From positions 1 through 64,000 of the IMG/VR virus record IMGVR_UViG_3300037461_000986: 64,000 bases of DNA. One strand, given 5' to 3'. Made by a program: the position numbers and the translations under genes. The DNA is from a virus. Of the stretch, positions 23,954 through 41,414 are shown one piece after another (the stretch's first letter is position 1; each line of letters begins with the position of its first letter). The notes under the pieces were generated by a model, which saw only the letters and a program-made list of their open reading frames with translations, searched no databases and was not told the origin of the DNA.

Positions 23954-24523
23954 CTATACCTTTGCGAATCCCAAGTTAGTATGCCACGTCAGCCCGGCCC
24001 GCGTCGCCTCACAGGCGAGGTAGTACTCCTGCCCCGCGTCGAGGTCGATGGCCGCCATCGAGAACGTGAACACGCCATCCGCATTGTCGTCGGTGTCCGT
24101 GCCGAGGTCCTGCACCTCGGTGCCGTCCGGTAGGCGCACGCTCGCGGCGATGCTGAGCATGTCGAGCTGCCGCTGTCCGTCCCGCTCGAGCCAGATCGAA
24201 AATGTCACGTCCGTGGCGTCGTCCGCCGCCGCAAAGCCCCACGTCAGCGGGGCCTGGGTCACGACGTAGGTGCCGCCGTAGACGGCCTGCGTCGCATCGA
24301 CCCCAACCTCGGTGACCCACTTGCCGGGCACGTCCGGGGTGAACTCAAACACGTACTCCCCACTCGTGCCAATCTCGGCGATGGTGTAGGCCACGACGCG
24401 CGGCACGCCATCGACCCAGAGCGTCACCGAGAAGGCGGTCTCCCCGGTAATCTTTGTCCAGCCATCCGGCTCGTAGATCGGGAACTGGTCCAGGATCGTC
24501 GTCCCTAAATCCACGGTCTGCAT
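23954..24523 (-). CDS. hypothetical protein, two Ig-like/beta-sandwich halves
   Basis: 189 aa with internally similar halves (..GEYVFEFTPDVPGKWV.. and ..DGVFTFSMAAIDLDAGQEYY..). AAGGAGG RBS. Confidence 0.6.
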   Translation of the reverse strand: MQTVDLGTTILDQFPIYEPDGWTKITGETAFSVTLWVDGVPRVVAYTIAEIGTSGEYVFEFTPDVPGKWVTEVGVDATQAVYGGTYVVTQAPLTWGFAAADDATDVTFSIWLERDGQRQLDMLSIAASVRLPDGTEVQDLGTDTDDNADGVFTFSMAAIDLDAGQEYYLACEATRAGLTWHTNLGFAKV

Positions 24524-24574: not shown

Positions 24575-27500
24575 TTAAATAATCTGCATATCGCACATGG
24601 ACGTCATCACCGCGCTCGCGCCGGGCGTCACGCCGACGTGGATGAAGGCCGGGCTCGCCGCGCTGTTAAAGGTCGCCGTCGCGGTCGGCGCGCCCGCGAT
24701 GCGCCCGAGCCCCGTCGCGCTGGTCAGCGTGTTGACGTAGAACGCATTGCACCGCGCCGTCGCCGCCGCGCCCAGCGTGAGGATGTCGCACACGATGCGC
24801 AGCCGCGCCTGGTCGATGGCCGCCGTGTTGGTGCCGCTCGTCCACGAGGCGATAGCCGTGTCACCCGTCCCGCCCGTCGTGCCGAACTTCACCTGCACGG
24901 CCCAGGTCGCCGTGCCCGCCGCCGTCTTGATGAGCACGATCTCCCAGACGAAGCGCGTGCCGACGAGCAGACTATTCACCGGCAGGCTCAAGAGCGAGCC
25001 AGTCAGCACGTTCGCCGACACCGCAAGGGCCTGCATCGCCGTCGTGAGCGCCGGCATGGCCGAGATCGGCATCGCGTTGTTGTTGTACGCGATCCGCTTG
25101 AAGACGCCGGTGCCGCCATCGTTGATGAAGGGCGCGGTGTTATTGTTGCCGACGTCGTTCTGGATGATCTGGTACCGGTTCGACGCGCCCGCCGCGATGT
25201 TGATGGCGTAGCGCTGCGTGTTCGCCGCCGTGCCCGCAAGGCCGATGCGGTTGCCGACGAGCTCGAAGTCGCTGACCGCCGCCGCAATGGCGATGCCATC
25301 GTAGGTGTTCGAGGCGGAGGCCGAGTTGCCCGCGACGGTCGAGCCGTTCACGCGGATGTTGGTGCCGAATAGGTAGTTAATGCCGTGCCTGCCGTTGTCC
25401 AGGAAGCGGCAGGACGCGAAGCTGACGTCATCGAGCACGCCGTTGCTCGCGCCCTCGAGCGTCACGCCGTGGCCAACGCCCGCCGCGTTCGCGCGCCCGA
25501 ACCAGCAGCCAACGAACTTGATGGACCGAAGCTGCCCCGGCGACGCCTGGTTCGGCGTGTACAGGTAGGCGCCGTTCGTCCCGGCGAGGTCGAACATGCT
25601 GTCACTGATAAAGCCGTACTGCACATTCGCGCCGCTGCTCGGGTACAGGTACAGCCCGTGCGTCACGTTGTTGACCGTGACGTTCTGGATGCTGAACGCG
25701 CCGGCCGCCTTGACCATGATGCCTGCCAGTGGCTTCGCGCCCGCCCCGTTCGTCACCATGATCCACGGCCCGAGATTGACGTCGAGCGCCGTGCTATTGT
25801 CCACGTAGACGCCCACACCGTTCGTCGCCACGCCGTCCTTGAGCTGGACGTTGCTCACCGTGACCTTGCCCGACCCGCCGCGAATGTAGATGCCATAGTA
25901 CCAGCCGAACATATTGACGCGGTCGATGAGCACGTTATGCGCGCCGTTCGTGTCGATGAAGCTGGAGCCCGCGACCTGCGCCGTGATGGTGCCAATCTCG
26001 AGGTCGCGGAACGTGATGAACTCGTTGCCGGCCGTGAGCTGAAACACCGGCAGGTTCGTGCTCGTCGGGTTGATGAGCGCCGCGCCGGCGCCCGGCCCGC
26101 GGAACGTCAGGGCCACATCGTTGACCGTGATGGTGCCCGTGGTCTTGTAGATGCCGCCTGGAAAGAAGATCGTCGCGCCGCGGTCGCCCGCCGCGGCCGC
26201 CGCCGTGAGCGTGTCCCGAATCGCCGTGGTGTCGTCCGCGATACCGTCGCCCACTGCGCCATAGTCCTTGACGTTGAACACCGGGAACACGCCGCCCACC
26301 GCGCCGAAGGACGGGGCCGCCGCCACGCCGCCGCCCTTGAGGACCGTGCCGGCCGCGCCGAGCGCGATCTCGGAAAACACGCCCGAGCCGTTGCTGTGGA
26401 ACAGCTTCCAGTTGCCACGCGCCGCCGCGAGCCGCGAGGTGTCGGTCGGATGGCGGTGGTCGGAGCGCGGCACCAGGCTCGTAGTGCCCACGCTGACCGC
26501 GCCGTCCATGAGGATGTTGGCTGTCGAGGTCTCGTAGTCGGGAATGGCCGCGAGCGCCGCCTTCTCCGCGTCCAGCTCCTCGAGCGCGAGCTGCACGTTG
26601 GCCGACGAGATATCGCCAGCAGGCGTGAACGTCACCGCTGAGGCTGTCGTCGAGGTGATACCGCCCGCCATCGGAAGCGACGAGACGAGCCGGTAGTCAT
26701 CCTCCCCGGCAATCGCCTGCACGACACCATCGGCGCGTACAATAAGGCGATAGAGCGGCTTGAGTTCCCCGGACAGGTTCTTGTTGGCAAGCGAGGGAAA
26801 GGCTGCCGCGCGCGCGAGCACCAACGAGCGATACCCGTTGTCGGCCGCGACGGCGGGGGACACGGTCTCGGCCACGCAGTAGACCGGGGTGTGCAGGTCC
26901 GTCGCGCCATAGACGAAAAAGTTGAAGTAGCGGTTCGCGGCCGAGCTGGCCTGCGTCAGCACGTACCCGGTCAGGTTGACGTAGGTCGGCCGGCCCGCCG
27001 CGCCCGCGCGGAACGGAATCGTGGACGGTGTGGTATCGAACGCGTAGGTGTTGGCGTCCGTCTGATAGAGCGTGCGCAGGGCATGCGGCGCGGGCCACGA
27101 TGCCGAGGCCAGCGCCGAAAAGGCGATGTCCTCATCCCATAGCTCGCCCCCGGACATCGTGAAGGTAGCACCGAGCCCGGTACCCGTGGGCGCGAAGTCA
27201 AACCCCGATCGATAGCGCGTGCCCACGGTGTCGTGCGCCCACGCATGCCACTGCGTATCCCGCAGGTAGCTGTGGCGCTCGTCCGAGACGAGGCCATAGT
27301 TGCTGCCGTTCCATGAGATTCCGGCGATCACGACGTTCGAGGTAGACGTAAAGCCCGGGAAGGTCTTGGTCGCCAGCAGCGTGCCGGTCGCGCGGTTGAA
27401 GTAGACCCAGTAATAGCCCGCCGTACTGCCTCCCACGCCGTCATCCAGCGTGGCCGTCTTATCGGCCGCGACGGTGCAGCTCACGCCCTTGTAGAAGTAG

Positions 27501-30500
27501 CGGATCGGATTGGCGGTCGCGCCCAGCGTGAAGGTCGTGGTCGTGATGTGGGTCGGCAGGCAGTTGAGGCCCGCCGCTGTCGAGCGCGCGTACACGCCGT
27601 GAAACAGTTTGGTGCCGTCGTCGTTGGTGATGGTGCCCGCGCCGATGGCGCCGTTCGCGGCGACCACGGAGTCGAACTCGGTGACGATCAGGTCCCCGGT
27701 GGCGATGTCCGCGAGGTAGTTATTGGCAAAGCCCGTCACGTCGATGACGTTGTGGGTGCTCTTGATGTACGCGCCCCCGGCCAGCGACGCGCAGATGAAC
27801 GCCGTGCCCGTGCCGCTTGCCCCGCCGACGGTCTTGCGGACTCGGATGCGCGTGTCCGCAATGTACTTGTCGATGGCCACGGAGCTGTGCTTCATGGCCG
27901 CCGCCACGCCGCTGTAGACCGCCGCCGTCACGTTCACGTCGATGATGCTGTTTTGCCAGATGACCGTCTCGGTACCGGCGGAGTCGGACTTGAAGGCGAT
28001 GGCGTTGTCGTTGGCGTCCTCAATACTCAAGGTCGCATTGACACCGCGCACGTAGATGATCGTGCCGCCCTCGCTGTGAACGAGCACATTGTCGTTGCCC
28101 GCGCCCGTCGCCGTGCCGGCCTGCACTAGGGTGCACGCACCGGTATTGATCTGAAGCGTGCCCGTGCCGCTCGTGTGAATCAGGCATCCGTAGGCGTCCG
28201 TCGAGAACTGTTCGATCACGCAATCAAAGAGCAGGTGCGTGCCCGCCGTCACCTCGATGCAGTGATCGCCATTAACCGCCGACGTGCGCTGCACGGTCAG
28301 GTTGCGCAGGTCCGCCCGGTTCGCGTTGCTCATCGTCACGACGGTGCCGGACGACGACTTGAGCACCACCGAGCGGGGTGGCCCCACGCCGATGATATCG
28401 ACGTAGTCCTTGAGGCTCAGGTTGACCGCGTACTCGCCCGGGAAGATCTGGAGGCAGTACCGCTTGCTGGCCGTCGCGTCCACGATGGCCGCGAGCGCGG
28501 TCGCCGGGTCGGTGTAGTCGCCGCCCGACTTTGCCACCGTCACATACTGCGCATAGTCCGGAATGCCCGTTTCCACCTTGGTGAAGTGCGCCGCCGACAT
28601 GAAGCCGGCCGCGCCCGCCGAGGCCACCGCGTGGTGCGTGTCCGTGGACTGCGCGCCGTGGTCGTGCACATGGTTGCTCTTGGCGAACGAAGCGGCGTCG
28701 CCCTCGACGTTGGCCGCGCCAATCGCAACCGGCGCGGCGGTCGCCAGGAAGTCTAACCCGCCAGGCAGGTGCCGCGCGGCGTGCGCGCTCACGGTCACGC
28801 CGTCCACGGTGCCCACGTTCGTGATGTTGTGCGTCCCCATCTGGAGGTCGCCGCTCATCGCGCGCGTGCCCGCCGCGAGCAGGTAGTGCGGATGGTCGTC
28901 GGCGGTCAGGCCACCGAGCAGGCCGTGCACGGTCGTGCCCGCGCCACCGCCACCGCCGCCGCCCGTCGCTGGCTGGGGTCGGATGTCGATGAACGACTCG
29001 ATGCCGACGCCCTGCTTTACGATGACCTGGTAGAGCTCAAACTTGCTGGCCTCCAGGAACGTGGGAATGTTCGCCGTGAGCGCGGCCTCGGCCTCCGGCT
29101 GGGTCTCGAACTCGGCCGTGCCGTAGATGAGGCTGAGCCGCCCGTCGCTGGTGAGCACCAGGGTGTCCGCGCGGAACCAGTCAGCCGTCATCGCCGTGAG
29201 CACGCCCGCGAGGTCGTACTCGGTGATGTTGACCTGCGTCACGCTCGGCACCTCGGTCGCGCCGCCCGCGCCGTAGAAGTAGCTCCACGTCGCGTCCGTC
29301 ACGCCGGTATAGTCCACGCGGTCCTTGGCGATGTAGTAGGCGCCCGAGTCGGTCGTGATGTTGCGCACGCCCGTGCCCGTCGCGCACGTTAGCCCCGAGA
29401 TGAGCGCGCGCGGGCGCGTGGCCAGTAGGTAGTCCCGGTCCTGCTCCGCGGGCGCGAGCATGGGGGTGCGCGTCTGGTGCGAGAAGCGAATCCCGACGCC
29501 GTCCGTGATGATGGTGCGCAGCAGGATCGAATCCCCGTAGGCCACCGGGGTGAGCGTCTTCTTGACGAGCCCGGTCGCGCCCTCCACGTAGACGTAGTTC
29601 GTGTTGCTGGCCGTGAGCGCCAGGGGCGTGGTGAGGTCCCACGTTACCCACTTGGCGTCGTGGTCCGGGTGACCCCGGCGGACCCAGCCCTTGCCCGCCG
29701 CGATCGCCACGTCGAGCCCGCCGAGCGCCGTGACCTCGCCGCCCTCGATCACGCCGGTGCTGATGAACTGGTGAAAGAACTCGCCGAGGTCGGCCTGGCG
29801 CCCCGAGGCGAGGTACTGGTAATTGACCTCGCCGATGAACGCCTGCGACTCCGCGTCCCGGCTCTGCACGCTGCCGATGACCTTCGCGCCCGCCACGATG
29901 CTCTGCGTCAGCGTGTCCACGGTCACGTTGATGAACGCGCGGCCGGTGGCCGATTCGATCTTCACGTCCAGCGTGTTGCCCTGGAGGTTCGAGCCGTGCA
30001 CGAGCAGCTCGGAGCCCGCGCCCACCGAGCCGATGTGCAGCGCCGTTTCGCAGCCGGCCAGCTCCACCGCGGACAGGTAGCAGAAGCCGCCGTCGTCCAC
30101 GAAGATCACGTCGGCGGTGTTGTCCTTGGCGGCCACGCGGAACGAGCCCGTGGCGATGAACCCCTGCGCCCCGGCCGTGACCTTCATCACGCGCTGGATC
30201 GGATTGTTTGCGTAGTAGCCCAGCAGGAGCGGCGAGACGTTGGCGAAGAACCCCTGCATGGCGAGGAACGACGGCGTGCCCGTAAACGCGCCGACGCCCG
30301 TCACCGTAAGCCCCGTGCCGATGTTGTTCGCCGGGCCGCCGATGATCATGGCGAGGTTCGTCCCAACCGCCTGGTACCCGTTCGCAATGAGGATGCCGTT
30401 CGAGCAGCTGTGGATCGCGAGGTCCATGAGCGACGAGAAGCCGCCCTCCGTCTCGCACCGCACCAGATATTTATTCGCCCCGCTCACGCCGATGAGGTGC

Positions 30501-33500
30501 GGCCCAAACAGGTGCCCGCCGCCGTCCATCACGATGAGGTCATCGGCCGGATCGATCGCCACGATGAACACGGAATCCATGCGGACCTGCGCACAGACCA
30601 AGTAGAGCCCAGGAACCAGCGTGAACTTGGGCTCAGGGTAGACGCCGGGATACACTTGCACGACCCAGGGATTCGCGGGCGTCACGCCGCTCGCCTTCGC
30701 CTCGGCGCAGGCCGCCGCGATAGAGCCCACGCCCAGAGCGTAGTCGCACTGGCTGCCGACCTGGCCCACCGTGCGGAAGTTCGCGATGCTCGGGATATGC
30801 CAGTGGTTGGTCGCCCGGACGTTCGTCGTCAGCTGCGTGTTGTCCGCCGCGGTCAGGTGCTTGTAGTCGCCCGCGTTCAAGCCGTCGAGCGCGTTGTGCG
30901 TCAGCAGCGAGCCCGTGCGCGGCGTGATGTTGCGCCCCAGCCAGGTGACGTAGTTCAGCCCGCCCGGCTCCTTGCGCACGCGCCCCTTGACCGCGTTCGC
31001 GTAGAGGTCGTTCGTTTGAAAGATGACCGTGCCCAGCGCGGACCACTCCTGCGCCGGCAGCGCCCCCGGGATGAGCGCGTTCATCTCGGTCGCGGCGCCG
31101 TTCCGCGCGTCCTCCAGCGTGGCGTAGGCCGCCTGCCCCTGCACCGCAAAGAACTTGTAGGCCGCGTCGTTCGTCGCAAAGACGTGCGCCAGCACGAAGC
31201 CGCCGTCGGGCACCTCGGTCTGCTGCCACGCGCCCCCGGTCAGCTCGTTCCACGCGAGCCGCCCCGTGCCGGTGGTCAGCACGGCGTAGCCCGCGTTGAG
31301 CGCCCGGCGCCAGACCCCGGTGAGGCCGTCCCGGTAGTAGATGGGCAGGCCCGTCGTCGCCGCGACCGGGGCGGCAAAGTGCGTGAGGTCCTCATCCACC
31401 ACCATCGACGACTCGAGGCCGAACTGCGCGTGCGCGGCCGACGCGCCGGACTCGTCGGCCTGGAACGTCACGAGGTTCCCGCCCAGCGTCAGGTACATCC
31501 CGAACCGCCAGTGCATGGTCTCGTGGGTCATCGAGTCCATGGTGATGCCGTGCCGCTCGTTGGCGAAGTAGATCTGCTGCTTGTTAGTCGCGTCCCAGTA
31601 CACCCACGCGCAGAGCGCATACTCGCGGAACAGCTGGCCGTAGACCACCGTGCTCGGGTTCGTCGCCACCGCGAGCGCGCCGGTCGCGTCGAAGTAAATG
31701 CCGTGAATGCCCTCGGTGTCCGGGATGTCCACGGTCAGCGCGGTCGTCTTCGTGAACGTCTGGCCCTTCACCCAAAAGTGGTAGCTCGAGAACGGCGGCG
31801 AGTTCGGCCGGATCGTAAAGCGGCGGTTGGCGTTGTCGAAGCTAATCACCGAGTACAGGAACTGGTCCGCAAACGGAAAGCCGGTCGGCTCCAGGGTGTC
31901 GGTCTCGCGCAGCCGGCTGTGCGCCTGCATCTCGTCGATGGCGGTCTGGAACCGCGTGGCGAGCAGGCCCGAGACGGCGTTGCTGTACTCCTCGATGTTC
32001 GCGGGCTCATAGGTAGCGTCATAATCGTACTCCACGACCGACGACGCTGTGGCCGCGTTCGCGATGGCGCGCGTGCCGATCTCGGAGAACAGCGCGGTGT
32101 TGCCGTCCGCGAGCCAGAGCTGCGTCGTGCAGGCATCGATGACCCAGTTATTCCACGATTCAAAGATCTGGTAGGTGCCCTGCTGGATCGCCAGGCAGGT
32201 GCCGCAATCCTTGAAGCGCGCGGCGGTGCCACCTCCGTAGATGCCCGTTGACAGCACGCTGCCCTCCTGCACGAAAACGCCGTACAGGCAGTCCCGGAAG
32301 AGCACGTCGTGGATGCTCATGAAACGGCCTGAACCTTCGAGGCCATACCACATGCCCACGATATGCGAACGCGCGATCCCGGTCGTGGCCCCACGATTTG
32401 AATAGATGCCGTTGCCCATATAGATGCCACCGTCATCCGCGAACAGACAGCATCCGGAAATAGCTGTATTACCCGAGCCAACAAATCCGAGGTCTCGGAG
32501 ATCGACGTAGCATCGGTCCAGATACATGGTGGCTTTTTCGGTCGCGTTGAGCAGCGAGACTAAGCCCTCGAACGAAACGTTCTGGCAGGTGACGCGCTCG
32601 CCGAGGTAACGATCCATCAGCCATATCTGCGGCGATGCCTTGTTCTCTCGCTCTATGCGGAAGTTCTGGATCAGGACGTTGGCAATCGAGCTATCCTGCA
32701 CCTCGATGTAGTCGTCGACGTAAGCAATCGGCACGCCCGGAGCGGCCACAGTTGCCGGGCGAATGATGGTCATGTCCACGATGTCGAAGCGCGTGGCGCC
32801 CGACATATCTGGCAGGTCCGTAGACCAGAGCCGCGTCGCGGTGTTGCTCAGGATCGGGTAGTAGCTCGCGTTGCCCGCGACCTTGATGTAGCGCCCCTGA
32901 TATTCGTTCGGCGTCCACGTCGCGCCGCTCACGTCCACGTAGGCGTGATAGTCCCACGCGGTGCTCGTATTCTGGTACGCGGTCGGCGTGAGCGTCGCCA
33001 CGACCGTCGTGGGCGCGCCGATGATCTCGATGGTGCCCGCCCCGGTAAAGCGCTTGATCTGGAGGTGGCCCACGTTGTCCGCCGAGAGCACCGTCCCGCG
33101 CGCGTACACGCGCACGGTCACGAGCGGGAGCACCTCGCCGTAGTGCGTGCGCAAGAACGCGAAGGTCTTCTTCGCCGTGCCCCACGAGAGCCCATCCGCC
33201 GCGTCGCTGCCGACGTCGCCGTCCACGTAGAAGGTCTCGTCCGCCTTGATGGTGAGCGCGGCCAGCTCGTCGATGGCGGTCTGATAGCGCACCGCCGTGA
33301 GCTTCGACGCGTCGTTGCTGTACTCGTCCTGGAGGATCGGCAGGTAGTCCGCGTCGGAGTAGCACAGGCGCAGCTGAACCCGACTCTGAAGGCGCGCGGC
33401 GGAGAAGTCCGCGAACGAGCCCACGTCGTTGTCCGAGAACACGAACTCGTGGTCCACGGCCCAGCCGCGGATCTCAAACTCGGCCTGGCGCACGAGGTCG

Positions 33501-34798
33501 CCCATGCCGACGAACGCCTGCCGCACCGTGTCGAACCGCAACTGCAAGGGCGGCGCGATGGGGGTCGCGAAGACCACCTTCCCGCCCTCGACGAGCACGC
33601 CCACGTCGCAGTCTTGAATATAAATCGAGCGATTGAACACGATGACGCCCGAGCTGATAACGTCCATCGCGAACAGCTGATTGCCGATCCAGGACTCCAT
33701 CAGCGTGAAGCTGCCGCCCTCCATGACATAGACGCCGTACCCGGTCCCGTCGGTCGAATCGAAGGCCGTGTTGCCCGCGAGCACCTCGCACCCATAGACC
33801 AGCATGAGGCCGTAACTCGTATGATTGATGTAGCACTGCGAGAGGTCGCCCAAGGACAGGTTGGTGATGGCCGGCGGCGGGCTCGCGACGTAGGTATTAT
33901 AAACCTTGAACGAATCCTCGTAGCGCGGACCCCAGCCGCCGTCCTCGTCGATCCACATGCCCTGGATGGTCACGGGGAGGTTGCAGTGATGGACGTAGAC
34001 AAAGTTGTCCCAGTCGAAGGCGTACTTCACGCCCGGGTCCGCGTCGAGTTCCCGCAGCAGCTCCGGCGCGCTGTAGATGGTCGCCGCGTAGGCCCCGGCC
34101 TGGTCATCGCCGAAGCCCATCCACAGGGTCGTCGCGTTGTTCTCGCGGATCGGGTAGTACCACGTGTGCCCCAGGTTCACGAAGTGCCGCCGCCACTGGT
34201 TCGGCGTCCACGCCTTGGTCGGATCGGCCACCCACTGTAGCGAGCCGCGCACCTCCGGGTCGTTGCTGTAGGCGGTTGCGGTGAACGTCTCGACGGGCGT
34301 GAGCGCGCCTCGGATCGTGATGGACCCGCCGCCGTAGAACCCGTCCAGGATGAGCAGGCCCTTCGCGCTGCGCGCGCGCACGGGGTTGCGCCAATCGATG
34401 GTCACGGCCGCGTTGAGCTGGCGCGGCAGGCTGTCCGGCTCGTCGGCCATGAGAAAGCCGAAGGTCTTCTTCGCGGTGCCCCAGCTCAGGCCGTCGTTGG
34501 CGTCGTCGCCCGCGGTGCCGTCCACGTACATGGCGAGCGGCTCCTCGACGGCCTCGCTCCCCACGCGCTGCCACGCGCCGTCCGCGAAGACGAACATGCG
34601 CTGCACCGTCGTATCGAACACGAGCAGGCCCTCGGTCGGCGTGGCGATGGCCTCGCGCTGGGCGGTGCTCATGCGCGGCGGCAGGAGGCCCTTGGTCGTG
34701 CTGTTGATCGCCAGCATCGCGTCGGCCGGATGCGCGCCGCGCCCGACTAAGAACTCCCGATAAACGCCCGTCAGATTCCCACGCTTCACGTCGCCCAT
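24575..34798 (-). CDS. giant (3407 aa) multi-module tail fibre / tailspike protein with several right-handed beta-helix (pectate-lyase-fold-like) domains
   Basis: A single uninterrupted 10.2-kb ORF. Motifs seen: two copies of YVDG.(A/V)G(D/S)DA.DGLSWGTAKKTF; GGDYTDPATALAAI..IFPGEY; FNVKDYGAVGDGIADDTTAIRDTL (Pectate_lyase_3-type start); HxH fibre motifs; and a Gly7 hinge. Confidence 0.85.
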   Translation of the reverse strand: MGDVKRGNLTGVYREFLVGRGAHPADAMLAINSTTKGLLPPRMSTAQREAIATPTEGLLVFDTTVQRMFVFADGAWQRVGSEAVEEPLAMYVDGTAGDDANDGLSWGTAKKTFGFLMADEPDSLPRQLNAAVTIDWRNPVRARSAKGLLILDGFYGGGSITIRGALTPVETFTATAYSNDPEVRGSLQWVADPTKAWTPNQWRRHFVNLGHTWYYPIRENNATTLWMGFGDDQAGAYAATIYSAPELLRELDADPGVKYAFDWDNFVYVHHCNLPVTIQGMWIDEDGGWGPRYEDSFKVYNTYVASPPPAITNLSLGDLSQCYINHTSYGLMLVYGCEVLAGNTAFDSTDGTGYGVYVMEGGSFTLMESWIGNQLFAMDVISSGVIVFNRSIYIQDCDVGVLVEGGKVVFATPIAPPLQLRFDTVRQAFVGMGDLVRQAEFEIRGWAVDHEFVFSDNDVGSFADFSAARLQSRVQLRLCYSDADYLPILQDEYSNDASKLTAVRYQTAIDELAALTIKADETFYVDGDVGSDAADGLSWGTAKKTFAFLRTHYGEVLPLVTVRVYARGTVLSADNVGHLQIKRFTGAGTIEIIGAPTTVVATLTPTAYQNTSTAWDYHAYVDVSGATWTPNEYQGRYIKVAGNASYYPILSNTATRLWSTDLPDMSGATRFDIVDMTIIRPATVAAPGVPIAYVDDYIEVQDSSIANVLIQNFRIERENKASPQIWLMDRYLGERVTCQNVSFEGLVSLLNATEKATMYLDRCYVDLRDLGFVGSGNTAISGCCLFADDGGIYMGNGIYSNRGATTGIARSHIVGMWYGLEGSGRFMSIHDVLFRDCLYGVFVQEGSVLSTGIYGGGTAARFKDCGTCLAIQQGTYQIFESWNNWVIDACTTQLWLADGNTALFSEIGTRAIANAATASSVVEYDYDATYEPANIEEYSNAVSGLLATRFQTAIDEMQAHSRLRETDTLEPTGFPFADQFLYSVISFDNANRRFTIRPNSPPFSSYHFWVKGQTFTKTTALTVDIPDTEGIHGIYFDATGALAVATNPSTVVYGQLFREYALCAWVYWDATNKQQIYFANERHGITMDSMTHETMHWRFGMYLTLGGNLVTFQADESGASAAHAQFGLESSMVVDEDLTHFAAPVAATTGLPIYYRDGLTGVWRRALNAGYAVLTTGTGRLAWNELTGGAWQQTEVPDGGFVLAHVFATNDAAYKFFAVQGQAAYATLEDARNGAATEMNALIPGALPAQEWSALGTVIFQTNDLYANAVKGRVRKEPGGLNYVTWLGRNITPRTGSLLTHNALDGLNAGDYKHLTAADNTQLTTNVRATNHWHIPSIANFRTVGQVGSQCDYALGVGSIAAACAEAKASGVTPANPWVVQVYPGVYPEPKFTLVPGLYLVCAQVRMDSVFIVAIDPADDLIVMDGGGHLFGPHLIGVSGANKYLVRCETEGGFSSLMDLAIHSCSNGILIANGYQAVGTNLAMIIGGPANNIGTGLTVTGVGAFTGTPSFLAMQGFFANVSPLLLGYYANNPIQRVMKVTAGAQGFIATGSFRVAAKDNTADVIFVDDGGFCYLSAVELAGCETALHIGSVGAGSELLVHGSNLQGNTLDVKIESATGRAFINVTVDTLTQSIVAGAKVIGSVQSRDAESQAFIGEVNYQYLASGRQADLGEFFHQFISTGVIEGGEVTALGGLDVAIAAGKGWVRRGHPDHDAKWVTWDLTTPLALTASNTNYVYVEGATGLVKKTLTPVAYGDSILLRTIITDGVGIRFSHQTRTPMLAPAEQDRDYLLATRPRALISGLTCATGTGVRNITTDSGAYYIAKDRVDYTGVTDATWSYFYGAGGATEVPSVTQVNITEYDLAGVLTAMTADWFRADTLVLTSDGRLSLIYGTAEFETQPEAEAALTANIPTFLEASKFELYQVIVKQGVGIESFIDIRPQPATGGGGGGGAGTTVHGLLGGLTADDHPHYLLAAGTRAMSGDLQMGTHNITNVGTVDGVTVSAHAARHLPGGLDFLATAAPVAIGAANVEGDAASFAKSNHVHDHGAQSTDTHHAVASAGAAGFMSAAHFTKVETGIPDYAQYVTVAKSGGDYTDPATALAAIVDATASKRYCLQIFPGEYAVNLSLKDYVDIIGVGPPRSVVLKSSSGTVVTMSNANRADLRNLTVQRTSAVNGDHCIEVTAGTHLLFDCVIEQFSTDAYGCLIHTSGTGTLQINTGACTLVQAGTATGAGNDNVLVHSEGGTIIYVRGVNATLSIEDANDNAIAFKSDSAGTETVIWQNSIIDVNVTAAVYSGVAAAMKHSSVAIDKYIADTRIRVRKTVGGASGTGTAFICASLAGGAYIKSTHNVIDVTGFANNYLADIATGDLIVTEFDSVVAANGAIGAGTITNDDGTKLFHGVYARSTAAGLNCLPTHITTTTFTLGATANPIRYFYKGVSCTVAADKTATLDDGVGGSTAGYYWVYFNRATGTLLATKTFPGFTSTSNVVIAGISWNGSNYGLVSDERHSYLRDTQWHAWAHDTVGTRYRSGFDFAPTGTGLGATFTMSGGELWDEDIAFSALASASWPAPHALRTLYQTDANTYAFDTTPSTIPFRAGAAGRPTYVNLTGYVLTQASSAANRYFNFFVYGATDLHTPVYCVAETVSPAVAADNGYRSLVLARAAAFPSLANKNLSGELKPLYRLIVRADGVVQAIAGEDDYRLVSSLPMAGGITSTTASAVTFTPAGDISSANVQLALEELDAEKAALAAIPDYETSTANILMDGAVSVGTTSLVPRSDHRHPTDTSRLAAARGNWKLFHSNGSGVFSEIALGAAGTVLKGGGVAAAPSFGAVGGVFPVFNVKDYGAVGDGIADDTTAIRDTLTAAAAAGDRGATIFFPGGIYKTTGTITVNDVALTFRGPGAGAALINPTSTNLPVFQLTAGNEFITFRDLEIGTITAQVAGSSFIDTNGAHNVLIDRVNMFGWYYGIYIRGGSGKVTVSNVQLKDGVATNGVGVYVDNSTALDVNLGPWIMVTNGAGAKPLAGIMVKAAGAFSIQNVTVNNVTHGLYLYPSSGANVQYGFISDSMFDLAGTNGAYLYTPNQASPGQLRSIKFVGCWFGRANAAGVGHGVTLEGASNGVLDDVSFASCRFLDNGRHGINYLFGTNIRVNGSTVAGNSASASNTYDGIAIAAAVSDFELVGNRIGLAGTAANTQRYAINIAAGASNRYQIIQNDVGNNNTAPFINDGGTGVFKRIAYNNNAMPISAMPALTTAMQALAVSANVLTGSLLSLPVNSLLVGTRFVWEIVLIKTAAGTATWAVQVKFGTTGGTGDTAIASWTSGTNTAAIDQARLRIVCDILTLGAAATARCNAFYVNTLTSATGLGRIAGAPTATATFNSAASPAFIHVGVTPGASAVMTSMCDMQII

Positions 34799-34827: not shown

Positions 34828-35640
34828 CTAAAGCTGCACCCACAACACCGTCAGGTTCGCCGCGCCGGTCGCCGCGCCGGGCGCCGCCAGCGTGGCCGTC
34901 ACCTGGGTCGAGAGCGCGTACAGGTGCGAGGCGTCCGCGACCTGCACGGCCACCTCGGTCAGATCGTTTTCGTCGAGCGCCATGAACCGGTCCGGGGCGC
35001 CCGCGTCGCCCACGGTGAGCGTCGGCCCGGCCCCGTCGAACGCCTCGCTCACGTTGAGCTTGACCTCCAGCACGCGCGCGCTCGCGGGCAGCGCGGTGCC
35101 GATGCCGAACGGGCTCCCGGTCGCGTAGGTGAAGTCCACCGACCGCTTTTGCACCACGCCGCCCAGCGTGAGCGTCGCCGGGCCGAGGTCCACCCAGTCC
35201 GCGCCGTCCGCGTCCCACACGTACATATGGTCCGCGAGGAACTCGACGACGCCCCCGGCCAGCGCGTCGGTCACGCGCATGGTCAGGCCCTCGATCTCGG
35301 GGATTTCATCCCACGCCGCGCCGGTATCGTAATACAATCGCCGCACGGTGAAGGCCCCGCCGGTCGTTGTGCAGACGAAGACTCTCCCCACGGTTCCGGC
35401 GGCCGGTGGGGCCGCACCGTCTATCTGCCCCAGCACCACCACGTCCGCGCGCGTCCGCAGGTACTTGAGCGTCACCACGTCGTCCTCGTCGGACGGCGCG
35501 GCGGCCTGGAGGCGCGTGTAGGCCGTGCCCGCCGCGTCGCGCACCTGCACGACCCCGCCCGCGTCGATGAGGCGCGGCCCGCCCTCGCCGAGCTGGAGGT
35601 CGCCGCTGACGCCCGTCAAGGTCCAATGTCGTGAGCCCAT
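34828..35640 (-). CDS. hypothetical fibre-associated protein
   Basis: 270 aa. It contains DDVVTLKYL and GRVFVCTTTGGAFTVRRLYYDTGAAWDEI, which are fibre-type motifs. It is directly upstream of the giant gene. Confidence 0.6.
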   Translation of the reverse strand: MGSRHWTLTGVSGDLQLGEGGPRLIDAGGVVQVRDAAGTAYTRLQAAAPSDEDDVVTLKYLRTRADVVVLGQIDGAAPPAAGTVGRVFVCTTTGGAFTVRRLYYDTGAAWDEIPEIEGLTMRVTDALAGGVVEFLADHMYVWDADGADWVDLGPATLTLGGVVQKRSVDFTYATGSPFGIGTALPASARVLEVKLNVSEAFDGAGPTLTVGDAGAPDRFMALDENDLTEVAVQVADASHLYALSTQVTATLAAPGAATGAANLTVLWVQL

Positions 35641-39000: not shown

Positions 39001-40053
39001 CAAGTCCGACGTGACGACCTGGCCCGACACCTTGTTGTGCTCGCCGACCATCGACACGCAAGGGATGCCGCCGTTCTCGGTCTGGCTCAGCGTCGAGAGG
39101 TACGAATGCCAGTGCGGCCGCCAGCGCGACCGGAAGTAGTTCACCCACAGGTCCGGGTTCGGCCCCTCGTGCACGCGCCGCGCTTGCACCGCGCGCAGCA
39201 GGCGCCAGATCGTCCAGTCCGCCCAGAGCTTCTCATAATCATCTTCACCCAGATTGCGGAAGCACCGGTCACGCGACACGTAGCGCGCGCCGTCACCCGC
39301 CGTGGCGTGCTGGTCGAGCGCCCACGCAATCGGACGCGGGTCGCCGCCGTTGTACCGCCATGCCTCCATCGCCGTTGCCTCGAGGCAGCAGGTGATGGGC
39401 GCGTCGCCCTTGCTCTCGCCCGCCGTCGGAACGAACTCGTCCCAATACCAGGGCCAGACGCGATTGAGGTTGATGCCCGTATCGACGCCGCTCGGATGCG
39501 GGCCGAGCAGGTTGATGTTGCGCTGGCCAAGGTAGTAGCCGTCCGGGTTGCAGCACGGCATGAAGACGATGTTGAACTGGTTCCGCAACGGCGCGAAGTC
39601 GTCGTGCGTCATCAGCAACTCGAACGCCTTGAGCGTGCCGAGTACGCCGTCCGGCTCGTTGCCATGGATCAGCGTATCAACTAGGAAATACTCGGGCGCA
39701 TCGATCATATAGGTGAGCAGCTCGAGCGGGCGGCCGTCCTGCGATAGGCCATCCCCGCAGGCGATACGCTGAAAGCCGCTGACGCCCGCCAGCGCCGCCT
39801 CGAGGGTATCAAGCTCATCAGTATAAACGTGCGTCTGCTCGCCAACGCGGTCGTAGCAACCGATCTCATTGGAATACCGCACGAATCCCTGGGATTCCGA
39901 GAAGCGGTGATAGATGGGAATGTTGCCGACGCTGGCCAGAATGCGGTCTGCCTGCACGCGCGGGGTGTTCGGCCCCACGGGCCTGCCCGAGATGGGGCAC
40001 CACGCATCGGAGGCGCGCGAAAAGGCCATTTGCTCAAACGTGAGCCGCTTCAT
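36031..40053 (-). CDS. M14 zinc-carboxypeptidase domain fused to a Kelch-like propeller and a ConA-like C-terminal domain (1340 aa)
   Basis: The start was re-set to ATG 40053 (MKRLTFEQ...), which overlaps the upstream stop as ATGA. M14 motifs appear in order: LIHGNEPDG (HxxE, 39655-39666), VFMPCCNPDGY, GINLNRVW, ALDQHAT, VGEHN. Four hhhhGG blade motifs follow (LYIFGGRG, MIVLVGGTYDG, VWFYGGEHVG, HMLFGGLERL). Confidence 0.8.
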   Translation of the reverse strand: MKRLTFEQMAFSRASDAWCPISGRPVGPNTPRVQADRILASVGNIPIYHRFSESQGFVRYSNEIGCYDRVGEQTHVYTDELDTLEAALAGVSGFQRIACGDGLSQDGRPLELLTYMIDAPEYFLVDTLIHGNEPDGVLGTLKAFELLMTHDDFAPLRNQFNIVFMPCCNPDGYYLGQRNINLLGPHPSGVDTGINLNRVWPWYWDEFVPTAGESKGDAPITCCLEATAMEAWRYNGGDPRPIAWALDQHATAGDGARYVSRDRCFRNLGEDDYEKLWADWTIWRLLRAVQARRVHEGPNPDLWVNYFRSRWRPHWHSYLSTLSQTENGGIPCVSMVGEHNKVSGQVVTSDLETYKSASDYNFDHIIAMALVAQGGLTERKAAVLIEHEVGDNQVPNSEFEEWSTITADGYRPQYWSRSRAILAASTSAEKHMLSTGRPVRASIDVTMELPEPDRYDEEGGADIVFIHGATTSVVLAARAEGETGASELRVYSCDLVSDPVFLFEGASWTQFSLHKQWRLGKSTPTSVIYLVGLGDKDVPTSAVFVKYTLSVGVWTPTPLTTHTDSLEDAGACLDHANGNLYIFGGRGAAADTPKVHKANCTAETLTEVGSDLLGDADYGMGSAFCSGGDLDGMIVLVGGTYDGELGLRVRVFDPSDGSLDEYDVDPGAFDDTEPGKPPSIMHCAVVYDGVDTVWFYGGEHVGSGDVYHSTWSIHWNGAGFDAVENHVLQAGLSDDGDPEDYAGDEEWIRPFRYWRGVRTYDSTLGKYVHMLFGGLERLSDGTDETDRNNMRGFYAHYVADDEMGRPADYNYGYVTLNSHIDVGAWDKANMSWSVRADTVAPATQSAMYARLNIAPGDSGAGIITTRRVRTYYMHPPQWWWRDHAAVNLAMARPDYTEDELRLYVRGYRQAQGMLVDAPMVQVDTLWPSSWSPAGTTRAVETATWADALDPRWFRLQLDWLPAAPFISMTSDVKLATIGGDEGSHFELWAVNSSSAQREYVRGTAVSTPEPVLRLWRVQGEDMDSIDVPCYWGGYIRDTALSRFDTPIQIEIWNHAGIGSGLVVRNGWAEGWEIMASRMTPATWIAPASVILHGGGWWAEPQTLEMDRLWKARYTKAPFPQGALLIGDRDPTSGQVSARGTFRYSDTFTRGDDANLGSNWDVIIQTGNGWNISSNQARCDQVGWERWIAYPYLRDCAVLAEVKAPSGGKVGLFTRLQWAFAGLGLAHGYAGYLHCTGAATANLVIARYYRDGAGVQQVSVLTTEAVTYTASAVVTLELAATGSTITLTMSGAHAGVATAVDTNHILPGAFGLFGETPGAGQYVWIDAVRATAGSTKVRITE

Positions 40054-41414
40054 AGTGGATTCGCCCCTCGCGCAAGGTCGCGCATGCGCGCGGAAAGCGC
40101 GCGCGCTGTAGCTCGGTTGATGCGGTTGGTGCCGTAGGCGACCCGCGAGATCATGCACTCGGCGGGCGAGCCGTCCGTCGCGCTATTGCCGATGATGAGC
40201 GTGCCGGGCGTGGGCGTCTGCGGATACCACGTCGCCGGATTGAACGCGCCGTCTAGGCGCTCGCCGTTGACCCAGAGCGTGGCCTGCGTATCGGTATTCA
40301 CCTCCTCCCAGGTCGCCACGATGCCCAGCGCCGCGAAGTCGTCCCACGAGGTCGGCCCATCGAGGAACGCGAAGTTCGTCCCGGACGTGTCCCCGAGCGT
40401 GACCACCACGCGGTCGTAGGTGTCGCTCATGGACACGCGCAGGCGCCATGTATCGCAATCGAGGTTGAGCATGCCCAGGAAGCGGTAGTTCGCGTTGCCC
40501 GCGTTGTCCGTGTGCCCGCGATCCGTCGAGCGGTCCGGCAGCACCACGCTCATCGCCAGCCACCCGCTCGGGCGCAGGCAGACCTCGGCCACCGAGGACC
40601 GCACGGCGTACTCCAGGCGCGAGTCGGCGCCGAAGCCCGCGCGCGTGATGCGCTCCGAGCCGGTGTACTGATTGAAGAACCCCGGGAACGCGAACTCCCA
40701 CTTGCCGTTATCGGCCACCACGGCGATCGAGCCGTAGCCGGTGGTCGAGGCGTTGTTCGGCACTAGGATGCTGAGCGCCCACCAACCGTCGTACCCGAGG
40801 CTGCGATAGACCGGGGTCGAGGTGGCGCGCGTGCCGGCCGTCGCGTTCCAGCCGAGCGTCACGATGCCGGCCGGGTCCTCGGTGCCGCTCTCCCCGCGCA
40901 CGAGCACCTGGAACTGCCGCAGGTAGGTCGCACTGCGCGCCTGGGACTTCTCCACGACGCAGTCATTGACCGCGTCCAGCGAGCTGTCGAGGTACACCCG
41001 GCGGCGGCTCGTGGCGATGTCGGGATCGCGTGCGATGCTCGGGAAGTCCGCGCCATCCTCGCTGAGCTGGCTCGCGTCCGTCGGCGCCACCACCGCGTAG
41101 TTGTACTTCGAGGTCCCATAGCCAACGTGATAGTTGGCGTTGGTCATGTAGAACGCACCGACGCTGCCGAGGCAGCGGTCCTTGCCCGCGGCCGTGTCGA
41201 TGCCGTCGGTCATGAACGTCCACTGCTTGTGGCTGTTCATGATGAGCCACTTGGCGGTGCTCGCCCCGCTCGCCGTCTCGTAGACCTCCGCGAGCATGGG
41301 GCCGCCCGCCTTCGCCGGCCCGACCGCCTGCTGCGCGCGGAGCGCGTCCCAGTAGAAGCGCGGGCGCAGCCGCAGGATCGCGCTCGCCCCGGCGCCTACC
41401 AGGCCGCCCATCAT
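40050..41414 (-). CDS. LamG-like lectin-domain protein
   Basis: The start was re-set to ATG 41414 (MMGGLVGAG...), an ATGA overlap with the upstream stop. The C-terminus TLWVNGERLDGAFNP....GTLIIGNSATDGSPAECMISRVAYG is a LamG signature. Confidence 0.65.
   Translation of the reverse strand: MMGGLVGAGASAILRLRPRFYWDALRAQQAVGPAKAGGPMLAEVYETASGASTAKWLIMNSHKQWTFMTDGIDTAAGKDRCLGSVGAFYMTNANYHVGYGTSKYNYAVVAPTDASQLSEDGADFPSIARDPDIATSRRRVYLDSSLDAVNDCVVEKSQARSATYLRQFQVLVRGESGTEDPAGIVTLGWNATAGTRATSTPVYRSLGYDGWWALSILVPNNASTTGYGSIAVVADNGKWEFAFPGFFNQYTGSERITRAGFGADSRLEYAVRSSVAEVCLRPSGWLAMSVVLPDRSTDRGHTDNAGNANYRFLGMLNLDCDTWRLRVSMSDTYDRVVVTLGDTSGTNFAFLDGPTSWDDFAALGIVATWEEVNTDTQATLWVNGERLDGAFNPATWYPQTPTPGTLIIGNSATDGSPAECMISRVAYGTNRINRATARALSARMRDLARGANPL

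What the first reader, a model, noticed from the sequence alone, without database searches (positions are those of the whole stretch)
24575..34798. 3407-aa single polypeptide that strings together about five tailspike-like beta-helix modules
The ORF is one uninterrupted 10.2 kb. Its parts in order: a fibre-type N-terminal motif (aa 33-80); two tandem ~430-aa modules (aa ~90-515 and ~523-958), each opening with YVDG..G.DA.DGLSWGTAKKTF; a further beta-helix-like block (aa ~1340-1650); a Gly7 hinge (aa 1946-1952, 28943-28963); and HxH fibre motifs. Then comes a pectin-lyase-fold-like block opening GGDYTDPATALAAIVDA..RYCLQIFPGEY (aa ~2090-2400). A Pectate_lyase_3-type block follows, opening FNVKDYGAVGDGIADDTTAIRDTL (aa 2841 on, 26243-26278), and then a ~165-aa C-terminal domain. 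Tailspikes normally carry one enzymatic beta-helix. Multi-specificity phages normally use several separate spike proteins. A covalent chain of several putative glycan-degrading modules would be an unusual adsorption device. It might be processed into pieces, or act sequentially on a thick, layered exopolysaccharide.
Basis: partly seen in the sequence, partly recalled or inferred. Interest (0 to 1): 0.8.

Follow-up and report, generated by a model that had tools for sequence, protein, structure and literature searches.

The report
Giant phage fibre with five beta-helices
An uncultured high-GC contractile-tailed phage encodes one 3407-residue fibre protein that carries five tailspike-like beta-helix domains in a row, and close relatives carry shorter versions of the same gene, so the protein seems to grow and shrink by whole modules.

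Summary
Window 24575-34798 (-) is one uninterrupted, uniformly coding 3407-codon ORF inside the structural module of a novel myovirus.

Five right-handed beta-helix modules are supported to different degrees:
- Modules A and B (30% identical paralogues): AlphaFold pLDDT 90, with only beta-helix and tailspike matches.
- b4: a pectin-methylesterase-like fold, TM 0.5-0.56.
- b5: Pfam PF12708.
- b3: only its N-terminal cap and part of its body.

Between the helices lie two copies of an undescribed 350-aa domain (X) with an invariant ERH/H/DED motif, a domain Y, a conserved Gly hinge and conserved HxH spacers.

Syntenic relatives carry 604-, 1232-, 1398-, 2339- and at least 2550-aa alleles at this locus. 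The 1232-aa allele is the giant minus residues ~525-2700. The distal module has moved between phages of different GC content. The gene is therefore a cassette "accordion", not an assembly artefact.

Enzymatic activity is not shown. The CE8 catalytic motifs are absent from b3 and b4. The gene lies between head and neck genes, not by the baseplate, so the attachment site is open.

Verdict: a real and unusual new variant of a phage receptor-binding fibre. Its function is inferred only.

The parts
34547..34798 (-). N-terminal anchor, aa 1-84, with the fibre-type motif TTKGLLPPRMSTAQREAI..GLLVFDT (PTL_trimer-like)
   Evidence: 69-75% identical to P0001 and P0002, whose precomputed Pfam is PF26696 PTL_trimer. 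The motif recurs in P0012-P0017. The local Pfam scan gave no hit on the giant itself.
33239..34546 (-). Beta-helix module A, aa 85-520
   Evidence: AlphaFold2 gave pLDDT 90.4 and pTM 0.87, all-beta. Foldseek PDB hits are right-handed beta-helix tailspikes, depolymerases and other beta-helix glycan-active enzymes (7w1c, 4y9v, 8bke, 4ru4; E 7e-5 to 1e-3, TM 0.2-0.3). BFVD hits are tail fibre, tail spike and beta-helix proteins (best E 3.6e-12, TM up to 0.49).
31919..33238 (-). Beta-helix module B, aa 521-960, a paralogue of A
   Evidence: 30% identity to A, E 3e-37. It belongs to the same family alignment A1. Its GC3 is lower, 0.78-0.86.
30797..31918 (-). Domain X1, aa 961-1334: an undescribed fibre domain with invariant ERH..H and DED residues
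   Evidence: More than 45 metagenomic homologues at 30-60% identity, several ending in Peptidase_S74, and one named 'tail fiber domain-containing protein'. Invariant columns are listed. No PDB, PHROG or Pfam match.
29819..30796 (-). Module b3, aa 1335-1660: a probable pectin-methylesterase-like beta-helix
   Evidence: The N-cap is homologous to that of b4 (hhalign 96.5%, E 8e-10, 57 columns). AlphaFold gave pLDDT 70-90 for aa 1340-1470, below 50 for aa 1473-1558, and 60-73 for aa 1559-1641. Two-helix PL6 lyases align across both b3 and b4.
28964..29818 (-). Domain Y, aa 1661-1945: a mixed beta/alpha domain
   Evidence: Homologous to parts of P0018, P0056, P0026 and P0042. Modelled at pLDDT 50-89. 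No specific structural match was identified.
28943..28963 (-). Gly7 hinge, aa 1946-1952
   Evidence: The hinge is conserved as GGGSGGG in P0018. Its model confidence is low, as expected for a flexible linker.
28562..28942 (-). Fibre spacer 1, aa 1953-2079, with HPH and HVHDH motifs
   Evidence: The motifs ..GL..DDH.QY.. and ..DH.H.. are conserved in P0018, P0056, P0059 and P0065. The spacer is not modelled as a monomer (pLDDT below 50).
27587..28561 (-). Beta-helix module b4, aa 2080-2404: pectin-methylesterase-like fold without the CE8 catalytic motifs
   Evidence: AlphaFold pLDDT is 70-90 with regular short strands. Foldseek gave 1gq8 TM 0.56 and rmsd 5.2 A, 1xg2 TM 0.53, 5c1e TM 0.51. A profile search against PDB hit 1xg2 at E 5.7e-4. 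Homologue P0069 hits Pfam Pectinesterase. The QDT, DFIFG and GRxW motifs are absent.
26699..27586 (-). Domain X2, aa 2405-2700: a divergent second copy of X
   Evidence: 23-29% identical to the X regions of many homologues. It aligns in A3 and keeps the invariant ERH/H/DED columns.
26279..26698 (-). Stem with the HRH motif, aa 2701-2840
   Evidence: Part of the 83%-identical colinear stretch with P0002, where it follows module A directly. The HRH motif is at aa 2781.
25079..26278 (-). Beta-helix module b5, aa 2841-~3240: Pectate_lyase_3 / RHGA-epimerase type
   Evidence: PF12708, E 3.7e-10, 40.4 bits, above the cut-off. PDB sequence hits are 7chu, 3zpp, 4mr0 and the AlgE epimerases. It is 80-86% identical in L001 and L008.
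24578..25078 (-). C-terminal domain, aa ~3241-3407, fold not determined
   Evidence: Conserved together with b5 in P0002 and L008. No family or PDB match.
34828..35640 (-). Conserved 270-aa gene that always precedes the variable fibre gene; it has a fibre-type N-terminus
   Evidence: Present in L001-L005 and in IMG/VR loci. It matches phrog_4302 and phrog_4042.
23954..24523 (-). 189-aa gene directly downstream, conserved in L001; its role is unknown (a fibre assembly factor is a guess)
   Evidence: 81% identical in L001. No family hit.
41411..44311 (-). Separate 966-aa spike carrying a sixth A-type beta-helix module
   Evidence: 43% identical to module A over 429 aa, E 2e-108. It is 71% identical to P0006.

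Best explanation
The ORF encodes a very long, probably trimeric virion fibre of an uncultured high-GC myovirus.

Its order of parts is:
- a conserved N-terminal anchor that fixes it to the particle;
- five right-handed beta-helix modules of three unrelated families (A and B; the pectin-methylesterase-like b3 and b4; the Pectate_lyase_3-type b5);
- between them, two copies of an undescribed domain X, a domain Y, a glycine hinge and HxH-containing fibre spacers.

Each helix most likely offers a separate binding groove, possibly a cleaving one, for a surface polysaccharide. One fibre could then engage several glycans, or several layers of one envelope. This step is inferred from fold only.

The gene evolves as an accordion. 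Whole modules are gained, lost and exchanged by recombination at module borders. The N-terminal anchor is shared by three of the five relative alleles and the distal b5+C-terminal module by two. This step is shown by comparison with relatives.
For: Structural context: terminase, portal, capsid, adaptor, neck, sheath, tube, tape measure and baseplate genes lie on the same strand.

Fold evidence:
- Module A is a confident beta-helix with tailspike and depolymerase neighbours.
- Module B is its paralogue.
- b4 has a PME-like fold with TM 0.5-0.56.
- b5 is PF12708.
- The b3 cap is homologous to the b4 cap.

Cassette evolution, with the same synteny (270-aa gene, then the fibre gene) in every locus:
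- The fibre gene is 604 aa in L003, 1232 aa in L001, 1398 aa in L004, 2339 aa in L005, and at least 2550 aa in L002.
- P0002 equals giant aa 1-524 (69%) joined to aa 2690-3407 (83%). It still keeps 'TFY', the first residues of module B.
- L005 is colinear with aa 1-1127 at 78% identity, L002 with aa 81-2103 at 60%, and P0018 with aa 927-2076 at 59%.
- b5+C-term is 80-86% identical across phages of 51-68% GC. In L008 it has GC3 0.675, against 0.45 for the 5' ORF.

The A/B module family is rare: 47 clusters at E<=1e-30 among 1.84 billion representatives. It nevertheless includes other giants with 2-4 copies: 3042, 2844, 2392 and 2379 aa.
Against: - No catalytic residues were identified in any module. 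The CE8 signature motifs are missing from b3 and b4.
- Foldseek TM-scores for module A are low (0.2-0.5), so only the fold class is established.
- Part of b3 is poorly modelled.
- Trimerisation, virion location and host are all untested.
- The gene lies between the head and neck genes, whereas the nearest cultured relative by sheath protein (Streptomyces phage BRock) has only small genes there and large ORFs of unknown function, possibly fibres, after the baseplate.
- A lectin-like protein follows the baseplate genes in this window.
- The exact protein is not on record in the public collection, so there is no read-level check of this contig.
- The junction b4-X2 (aa ~2100-2610) is not covered by any independent contig.
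Confidence: 0.62

Rival explanations
1. The protein is a purely adhesive or spacer fibre with no enzymatic activity. The beta-helices serve as rigid, glycan- or protein-binding shaft elements, as in bacterial beta-helix adhesins. The fibre is attached at the neck or head rather than the baseplate. It mediates reversible first contact with cells, biofilm or particles.
For: - b5 matches the non-enzymatic adhesin PfbA (4mr0) and a cell-wall-anchored surface protein (3zpp) as strongly as it matches lyases.
- CE8 catalytic motifs are absent from b3 and b4.
- The bodies of the A/B and b4 families contain few invariant polar residues.
- The gene sits between the capsid genes and the head-tail adaptor.
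- A lectin-like candidate receptor-binding protein exists after the baseplate genes.
Against: - The structural neighbours of module A are dominated by capsule and O-antigen depolymerases and glycoside hydrolases.
- The conserved DSxDxTGxG and RFD motifs in the helix body could be an active site.
- Gene position alone does not fix the attachment site. In T4, the fibritin and short-tail-fibre genes also precede the neck genes (established knowledge).
Confidence: 0.28
2. The full-length chain is only a precursor. It is cut, or translated in pieces, into several separate spikes that assemble as a branched complex.
For: - In the related L002 the ORF is interrupted by an in-frame TAA.
- In L008 the reading frame switches at the very same codon. 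Both give a ~1030-aa first product.
- Relatives encode single-unit proteins that correspond to parts of the giant: P0001, P0018, P0031 and P0068-71.
Against: - No Peptidase_S74 or other protease or chaperone domain is present in the giant.
- The interruption in L002 and L008 falls inside module B, not at a module border.
- It is absent from the window, L005 and P0002.
- Internal units lack their own anchor domains.
Confidence: 0.07
3. The giant ORF is an artefact. Either a metagenomic assembly concatenated alternative alleles of a hypervariable fibre locus, or neighbouring genes look fused because stop codons are rare at 68% GC.
For: - The locus is hypervariable, with alleles of 604-3407 aa.
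- The window's protein is not on record elsewhere.
- The stretch aa ~2100-2610 has no independent colinear contig.
Against: - The longest exact internal repeat is 18 nt, and DNA self-similarity is limited to three 66-87-bp stretches at 73-76%. That is too little for assembler mis-joins.
- Independent contigs from other samples are colinear across the N-A-B-X1 junctions and across the run from A through B, X1, b3, Y, the hinge and the spacer into the first residues of b4. One of them has only 51% GC.
- GC3 is uniformly high in this frame.
- Homology is continuous across every module border.
Confidence: 0.05

Closest known systems
Single-helix phage tailspikes and capsule/O-antigen depolymerases (P22 gp9, LKA1 gp49 4ru4, AP22 gp54 4y9v, KP34p57 8bke, K1 lyase 7w1c)
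   Same: They share the right-handed parallel beta-helix as the working domain, an N-terminal particle-binding part, and a place in the phage structural module. They are the best structural neighbours of module A.
   Different: These proteins have one helix per chain and are 500-1000 aa long. The giant has five helices of three families plus the X and Y domains in 3407 aa. Sequence identity is 8-14% only, no catalytic residues could be mapped, and the gene is not next to the baseplate genes.
Branched multi-tailspike systems (CBA120 TSP1-4, Klebsiella phage K64-1 with many separate depolymerases)
   Same: Several different beta-helix specificities are carried on one virion.
   Different: Those systems use separate polypeptides docked on one another (PMC8825819 abstract). 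Here the modules are covalently linked in series, and the number of modules changes within one gene between relatives.
CE8 pectin methylesterases (1gq8, 1xg2, 5c1e)
   Same: b4 superposes with TM 0.51-0.56 and shares the N-terminal cap motif (VAxdGsGdyxTIqxAidaa...GxYxE). The b3 cap shows only sub-significant sequence similarity to pectinesterases (E ~0.1) and is linked through its homology to the b4 cap.
   Different: The catalytic QDT, DFIFG and GRxW signatures are absent. Sequence similarity is limited to about 70 residues.
Two-domain PL6 alginate lyases (AlyGC 5gkd, 8bwk)
   Same: They have two beta-helix domains in one chain, and they are the top Foldseek hits that span both b3 and b4.
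   Different: They are soluble bacterial enzymes of about 730 aa. The global TM-score is only 0.15-0.2, and they have no fibre elements.
Mosaic trimeric fibres with intramolecular chaperone (T5 pb1, K1F endosialidase stalk, Bdellovibrio MAT proteins, PMC10769870)
   Same: Both show a mosaic build with a conserved proximal end, and both are long trimeric adhesins. Homologues of domain X end in Peptidase_S74.
   Different: The giant has no S74 domain. Those fibres use intertwined triple beta-helices rather than strings of single-chain right-handed helices.
T4-type long and short tail fibres (gp12, gp34-37) with HxH metal sites
   Same: HxH motifs occur in extended spacers and are conserved across homologues.
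   Different: Metal binding is untested here. There is no detectable sequence homology to the T4 fibres.

Membership tests
Phage tailspike / depolymerase (pectin-lyase-fold receptor-binding protein) | Right-handed parallel beta-helix domain | tested here: met
   Module A: AlphaFold pLDDT 90 with exclusively beta-helix neighbours. b4: TM 0.5-0.56 to PMEs. b5: PF12708 above the cut-off. B is met by homology to A. b3 is only partly met.
Phage tailspike / depolymerase (pectin-lyase-fold receptor-binding protein) | Encoded in a phage structural module and carrying an N-terminal particle-binding domain | tested here: met
   Structural genes lie on both sides. The N-terminus is shared with P0001, P0002 and P0004, which are annotated PF26696 PTL_trimer. 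However, the position is next to the head and neck genes, not the baseplate genes.
Phage tailspike / depolymerase (pectin-lyase-fold receptor-binding protein) | Glycan-cleaving active site (acidic catalytic pair or lyase site) and activity on the host polysaccharide | not testable with these tools
   No coordinates or superpositions were available, and the host is unknown. Only the conserved motifs DSxDxTGxG and RFD were noted in the A/B family.
Phage tailspike / depolymerase (pectin-lyase-fold receptor-binding protein) | Homotrimer | not tested
   Only monomer models were made. The low confidence of the HxH spacers as monomers is compatible with a need for trimerisation but does not prove it.
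CE8 pectin methylesterase | CE8 beta-helix fold with the N-terminal cap | tested here: met
   b4: 1gq8 TM 0.56 and rmsd 5.2 A over 315 columns. The profile hit to 1xg2 has E 5.7e-4.
CE8 pectin methylesterase | Catalytic signature motifs (QAVAL, QDTL, DFIFG, LGRPW) | tested here: not met
   A regular-expression search of b3 and b4 found none. Only GxYxE is present, and only in b3.
Pfam PF12708 Pect-lyase_RHGA_epim (formerly Pectate_lyase_3) | Score above the Pfam gathering threshold | tested here: met
   40.4 bits against a cut-off of 27, aa 2841-3051.
Pfam PF26696 PTL_trimer N-terminal domain | Match to the family model | tested here: inconclusive
   The local Pfam scan at E<=1 reported no hit on the giant. 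Homologues that are 69-75% identical over this part carry the precomputed annotation.
Peptidase_S74 (intramolecular chaperone) tail fibres | C-terminal S74 autoproteolytic chaperone domain | tested here: not met
   No PF13884 hit on the giant. The domain is present in some proteins that share domain X: P0022-24, P0031 and P0044.
T4-like HxH metal-binding fibre segments | HxH motifs that coordinate a metal on the trimer axis | not testable with these tools
   The motifs are present and conserved. Metal coordination needs a trimer structure.

The most novel reading that the evidence does not exclude
The protein is a covalent 'multi-tool' fibre. Each of the five beta-helices, and perhaps the metal-site-like X domains, recognises or cleaves a different host glycan. 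The phage lineage changes host range by adding, deleting and swapping whole modules inside this one gene, and the fibre is mounted at the neck or head rather than the baseplate. That would be a mode of receptor-binding-protein evolution and architecture distinct from both single tailspikes and branched multi-spike complexes.
Probability: 0.3. Interest if true: 0.75.

Novelty: new variant of a known kind. Interest (0 to 1): 0.6.

Why it matters
Receptor-binding proteins set phage host range, and they are the main target of phage engineering.

Characterised systems reach multi-specificity with several separate spikes. A serial, covalent array of five beta-helices would be a different design principle, and its natural alleles of 604 to 3407 aa differ by whole modules. 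Those alleles form a ready-made natural deletion series for asking which modules are needed for which host or glycan.

The protein also exposes three uncharacterised building blocks:
- the A/B helix family;
- the PME-like helices that lack CE8 motifs;
- the X domain with an invariant ERH/H/DED motif.

These blocks are absent from the cultured-phage family library searched (PHROGs gave no hit on the giant beyond one weak head-protein match, and none on domain X) and from the PDB by sequence (A/B and X none; b3/b4 only their N-terminal cap). The A/B family was also not found in 185,000 reference genomes.

Tried and rejected
- A full-length search of the 5.8-billion-protein collection timed out, so the protein was searched in three pieces.
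- Megablast of the ORF against 50,697 phage genomes gave no match.
- An exact look-up of the giant and of P0008 found neither on record.
- Profile searches of the A/B family and of domain X against PDB sequences gave nothing significant. The N-terminus alone also gave nothing.
- PHROGs and NCBIfam added nothing for the giant or for X.
- An attempt to fold X1+b3+b4 as a deletion construct failed. The natural stretch aa 1330-2420 was therefore folded, and X has no model.
- A viral-contig scan with the single 270-aa protein found nothing. The alignment-based scan found only distant loci.
- Both metagenome-contig scans were unproductive. The 189-aa gene gave no relatives. The b5 query returned only generic Pectate_lyase_3 cap matches of 28% identity or less over the full length.
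- The genome-contig scan with the A/B profile gave only short motif matches, so no prophage or host was found.
- Assembly artefact by repeats was rejected.
- S74-type autoprocessing was rejected.
Full report
**The object**

Window 24575-34798 on the minus strand is a single ATG-initiated ORF of 3407 codons with no internal stop. The window has 68% GC, so roughly 2.2% of random codons would be stops. An open stretch of this length therefore has a chance probability near 1e-32 (own arithmetic). GC3 stays between 0.78 and 0.96 in every 200-codon block of this frame, which is the signature of real coding sequence in a high-GC genome.

The longest exact repeat inside the ORF is 18 nt. It is the DNA that encodes the linker motif QTAIDE. 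DNA self-similarity is limited to three stretches of 66-87 bp at 73-76% identity. The 'tandem modules' are therefore old paralogues, not collapse-prone repeats.

**Genomic setting**

All convincing genes lie on the minus strand. In order of transcription they are:
- large terminase (61945-63549);
- portal (58338-60212);
- a Mu-F-like minor head protein interrupted by an intein (52083-56354);
- major capsid protein (47779-48714);
- several small genes;
- a 966-aa protein (41411-44311);
- a 513-aa protein;
- a 1375-aa Peptidase_M14/Kelch protein (36031-40158);
- a 125-aa protein;
- a 270-aa protein;
- the giant;
- a 189-aa protein;
- head-tail adaptor, neck/tail-completion protein, a TIG-domain protein, sheath, tube, tape measure and baseplate wedge;
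- a Laminin_G_3 lectin-like protein.

This is a myovirus with no close cultured relative. The ORF has no DNA match. The sheath is 28% identical to that of Streptomyces phage BRock, and the capsid is 37% identical to various phage capsids.

In BRock, only small genes lie between capsid and sheath, and two ~780-aa ORFs annotated only as hypothetical proteins, possibly fibres, follow the baseplate genes. The block of about 20 kb of fibre-like genes between the head and neck genes is thus a peculiarity of this lineage. It leaves the attachment site of the giant open.

**Anatomy of the protein**

- **aa 1-84, anchor.** This part carries the motif TTKGLLPPRMSTAQREAI..GLLVFDT. It is 69-75% identical to proteins annotated PF26696 PTL_trimer.
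- **aa 85-520 (A) and 521-960 (B).** These are paralogues with 30% identity, E 3e-37. A 15-sequence family alignment gave an AlphaFold2 model of A with pLDDT 90.4 and pTM 0.87, all-beta.
  - The significant Foldseek PDB neighbours are right-handed beta-helices: the K1 capsule lyase, the AP22, LKA1 and phi297 tailspikes, KP34 and K64-1 depolymerases, and GH110 and GH136 enzymes. TM-scores are only 0.2-0.3.
  - Among predicted viral structures the neighbours are tail fibre, tail spike and 'right-handed beta helix' proteins, with a best E of 3.6e-12.
  - The fold class is therefore established. A closer family relationship is not.
- **aa 961-1334 (X1) and 2405-2700 (X2).** These are two copies of a domain of about 350 aa found in more than 45 metagenomic fibre proteins. 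Some of these end in Peptidase_S74, and one is named a tail-fibre protein. The family has invariant Glu-Arg-His, His and Asp-Glu-Asp positions. It has no match in PDB sequences, PHROGs or Pfam. I could not fold it.
- **aa 1335-1660 (b3) and 2080-2404 (b4).** Both begin with the same cap motif that opens pectin methylesterases (hhalign 96.5%; 1xg2 E 5.7e-4; P0069 Pfam Pectinesterase).
  - In the AlphaFold model of aa 1330-2420 (mean pLDDT 63), b4 is well defined (70-90). It matches PMEs with TM 0.51-0.56 and rmsd 5-7 A.
  - Two-helix PL6 alginate lyases align over both b3 and b4.
  - b3 is confident only in parts.
  - The CE8 catalytic signatures are absent from both.
- **aa 1661-1945 (Y).** This is a mixed domain shared with P0018, P0056, P0026 and P0042.
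- **Gly7 hinge, aa 1946-1952.** It is conserved as GGGSGGG in P0018.
- **HxH motifs.** Those in the two spacers (HPH, HVHDH, HRH) recur in homologues as DHxH.
- **aa 2841-~3240 (b5).** This is PF12708 above threshold. PDB sequence matches include a phage 'pectin lyase' (7chu), the adhesin PfbA and the AlgE epimerases.
- **The last ~167 residues.** They form an unassigned domain.

**Relatives show that the gene is a cassette array**

The conserved 270-aa gene marks the locus. Directly after it, the fibre gene has these lengths:

| Locus | Fibre gene length |
|---|---|
| L003 | 604 aa |
| L001 | 1232 aa |
| L004 | 1398 aa |
| L005 | 2339 aa |
| L002 | at least 2550 aa |
| this window | 3407 aa |

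- L001 shares the downstream genes of 189, 341 and 170 aa with the window. L005 shares everything from the capsid gene down to the 270-aa gene.
- The 1232-aa allele (P0002) equals giant aa 1-524 at 69% identity, joined to aa 2690-3407 at 83%. At the joint it retains 'TFY', the first residues of module B. It thus looks like a deletion or recombination derivative of a longer form.
- L005 is colinear with aa 1-1127 at 78% identity.
- L002 is colinear with aa 81-2103 at 60% and has one extra B-type module in front.
- P0018 equals aa 927-2076 at 59%, with a different N-terminus and its own short C-terminal end.
- The distal b5+C-terminal unit is 80-86% identical across phages of 68, 61 and 51% GC, whereas the neighbouring 270-aa protein drops to 48%. 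In L008 this unit has GC3 0.675, against 0.45 for the upstream ORF. That indicates recent lateral transfer of the unit.
- Within the window, module B and X2 have lower GC3 than the rest, which is compatible with a mosaic origin.
- An exhaustive profile search finds the A/B family in only 47 clusters at E<=1e-30 among 1.84 billion representatives. Those include other giants with 2-4 module copies, of 3042, 2844, 2392 and 2379 aa.
- The family was not found in 185,579 reference genomes, so no host can be named.

**How it probably works**

Shown:
- The protein is a virion-module protein with an anchor-type N-terminus.
- It carries at least four (A, B, b4, b5) and probably five (b3 only in part) beta-helices, conserved hinge and HxH spacers, and modular alleles.

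Inferred:
- It forms a trimeric fibre.
- Each helix presents a groove for a surface polysaccharide, as in tailspikes.
- Several different helices in series allow binding, and perhaps cleavage or deacylation, of several glycans or layers.
- Module gain, loss and swapping retune host range.

Whether any module is catalytic is open. The absence of CE8 motifs and the adhesin-like matches of b5 make a purely adhesive fibre a serious rival. The position of the gene, and the lectin-like protein after the baseplate genes, allow a neck- or head-mounted fibre. Processing into pieces has little support, because there is no S74 or protease domain.

One oddity remains. In L002 an in-frame TAA, and in L008 a frame switch, fall at the same codon inside module B. 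I cannot explain this.

**Artefact check**

Independent contigs cover every junction from the N-terminus to aa ~2100 and from aa ~2610 to the end. The stretch b4-X2 is seen only here. The exact protein is not on record elsewhere, so read-level confirmation is still needed.

**Verdict**

The functional reading (glycan-degrading, tailspike) is plausible but unproven.

As far as I could find, no characterised phage receptor-binding protein strings several right-handed beta-helices in one chain. This rests on literature searches and on my own knowledge, and the literature coverage is incomplete. I rate it a new variant of a known kind, with moderate to high interest.

Noticed in passing
window 41411-44311 (-): A separate 966-aa protein carries its own A-type beta-helix module. 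The module is 43% identical to module A of the giant, and the protein is 71% identical to P0006. The phage therefore combines a classical separate spike with the giant.
   Followed up: partly
window 52083-56354 (-): This 1423-aa Mu-F-like minor head protein is interrupted by a Hint_2/Intein_splicing domain at aa ~386-551. The syntenic gene in L005 has the same Pfam hits.
   Followed up: partly
window 36031-40158 (-): A 1375-aa protein with a Peptidase_M14 zinc-carboxypeptidase domain and Kelch repeats sits among the fibre genes. It is conserved at the same place in L002, L005 and L006. It may be a virion-associated cell-wall peptidase.
   Followed up: no
window 30797-31918 and 26699-27586 (-): Domain X is about 350 aa long and has invariant ERH, H and DED positions. 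It occurs in more than 45 metagenomic fibre proteins but is absent from Pfam, PHROGs and PDB sequences. It is a candidate metal or active site of unknown fold.
   Followed up: partly
L002 13085-13087 and L008 ~14020-14034: Two related contigs from different datasets end the first fibre ORF at the same codon, after ...VDNVGHL (giant aa 579). L002 does so by an in-frame TAA where the window has CAG. L008 does so by a junction that switches frame into the distal X2-b5 part. The cause is unexplained.
   Followed up: partly
window 24578-26278 (-); L001 3089-4804; L008 14712-16421: The distal b5+C-terminal unit is 80-86% identical in phages of 68, 61 and 51% GC. In L008 it has much higher GC3 (0.675) than the rest of the gene (0.45). 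This points to recent lateral transfer of the unit.
   Followed up: yes
window 4928-6061 (-): A 377-aa protein with a Laminin_G_3 (concanavalin-A-like lectin) domain lies downstream of the baseplate wedge gene. It is a likely baseplate-attached receptor-binding protein, independent of the giant.
   Followed up: no
P0106 (3716 aa, metagenomic representative): This is another giant fibre with one A/B-type module. It appears to contain an intein-like insert with a homing-endonuclease-like segment. I saw this only by reading the sequence.
   Followed up: no
window 34828-35640 (-) and P0018 N-terminus: The conserved 270-aa protein and the 1398-aa allele P0018 share an N-terminal motif (..G.V.LG.GGPRL.D.GG.VE.R..). 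This suggests that they dock to the same site, and that the fibre locus also swaps anchors.
   Followed up: no
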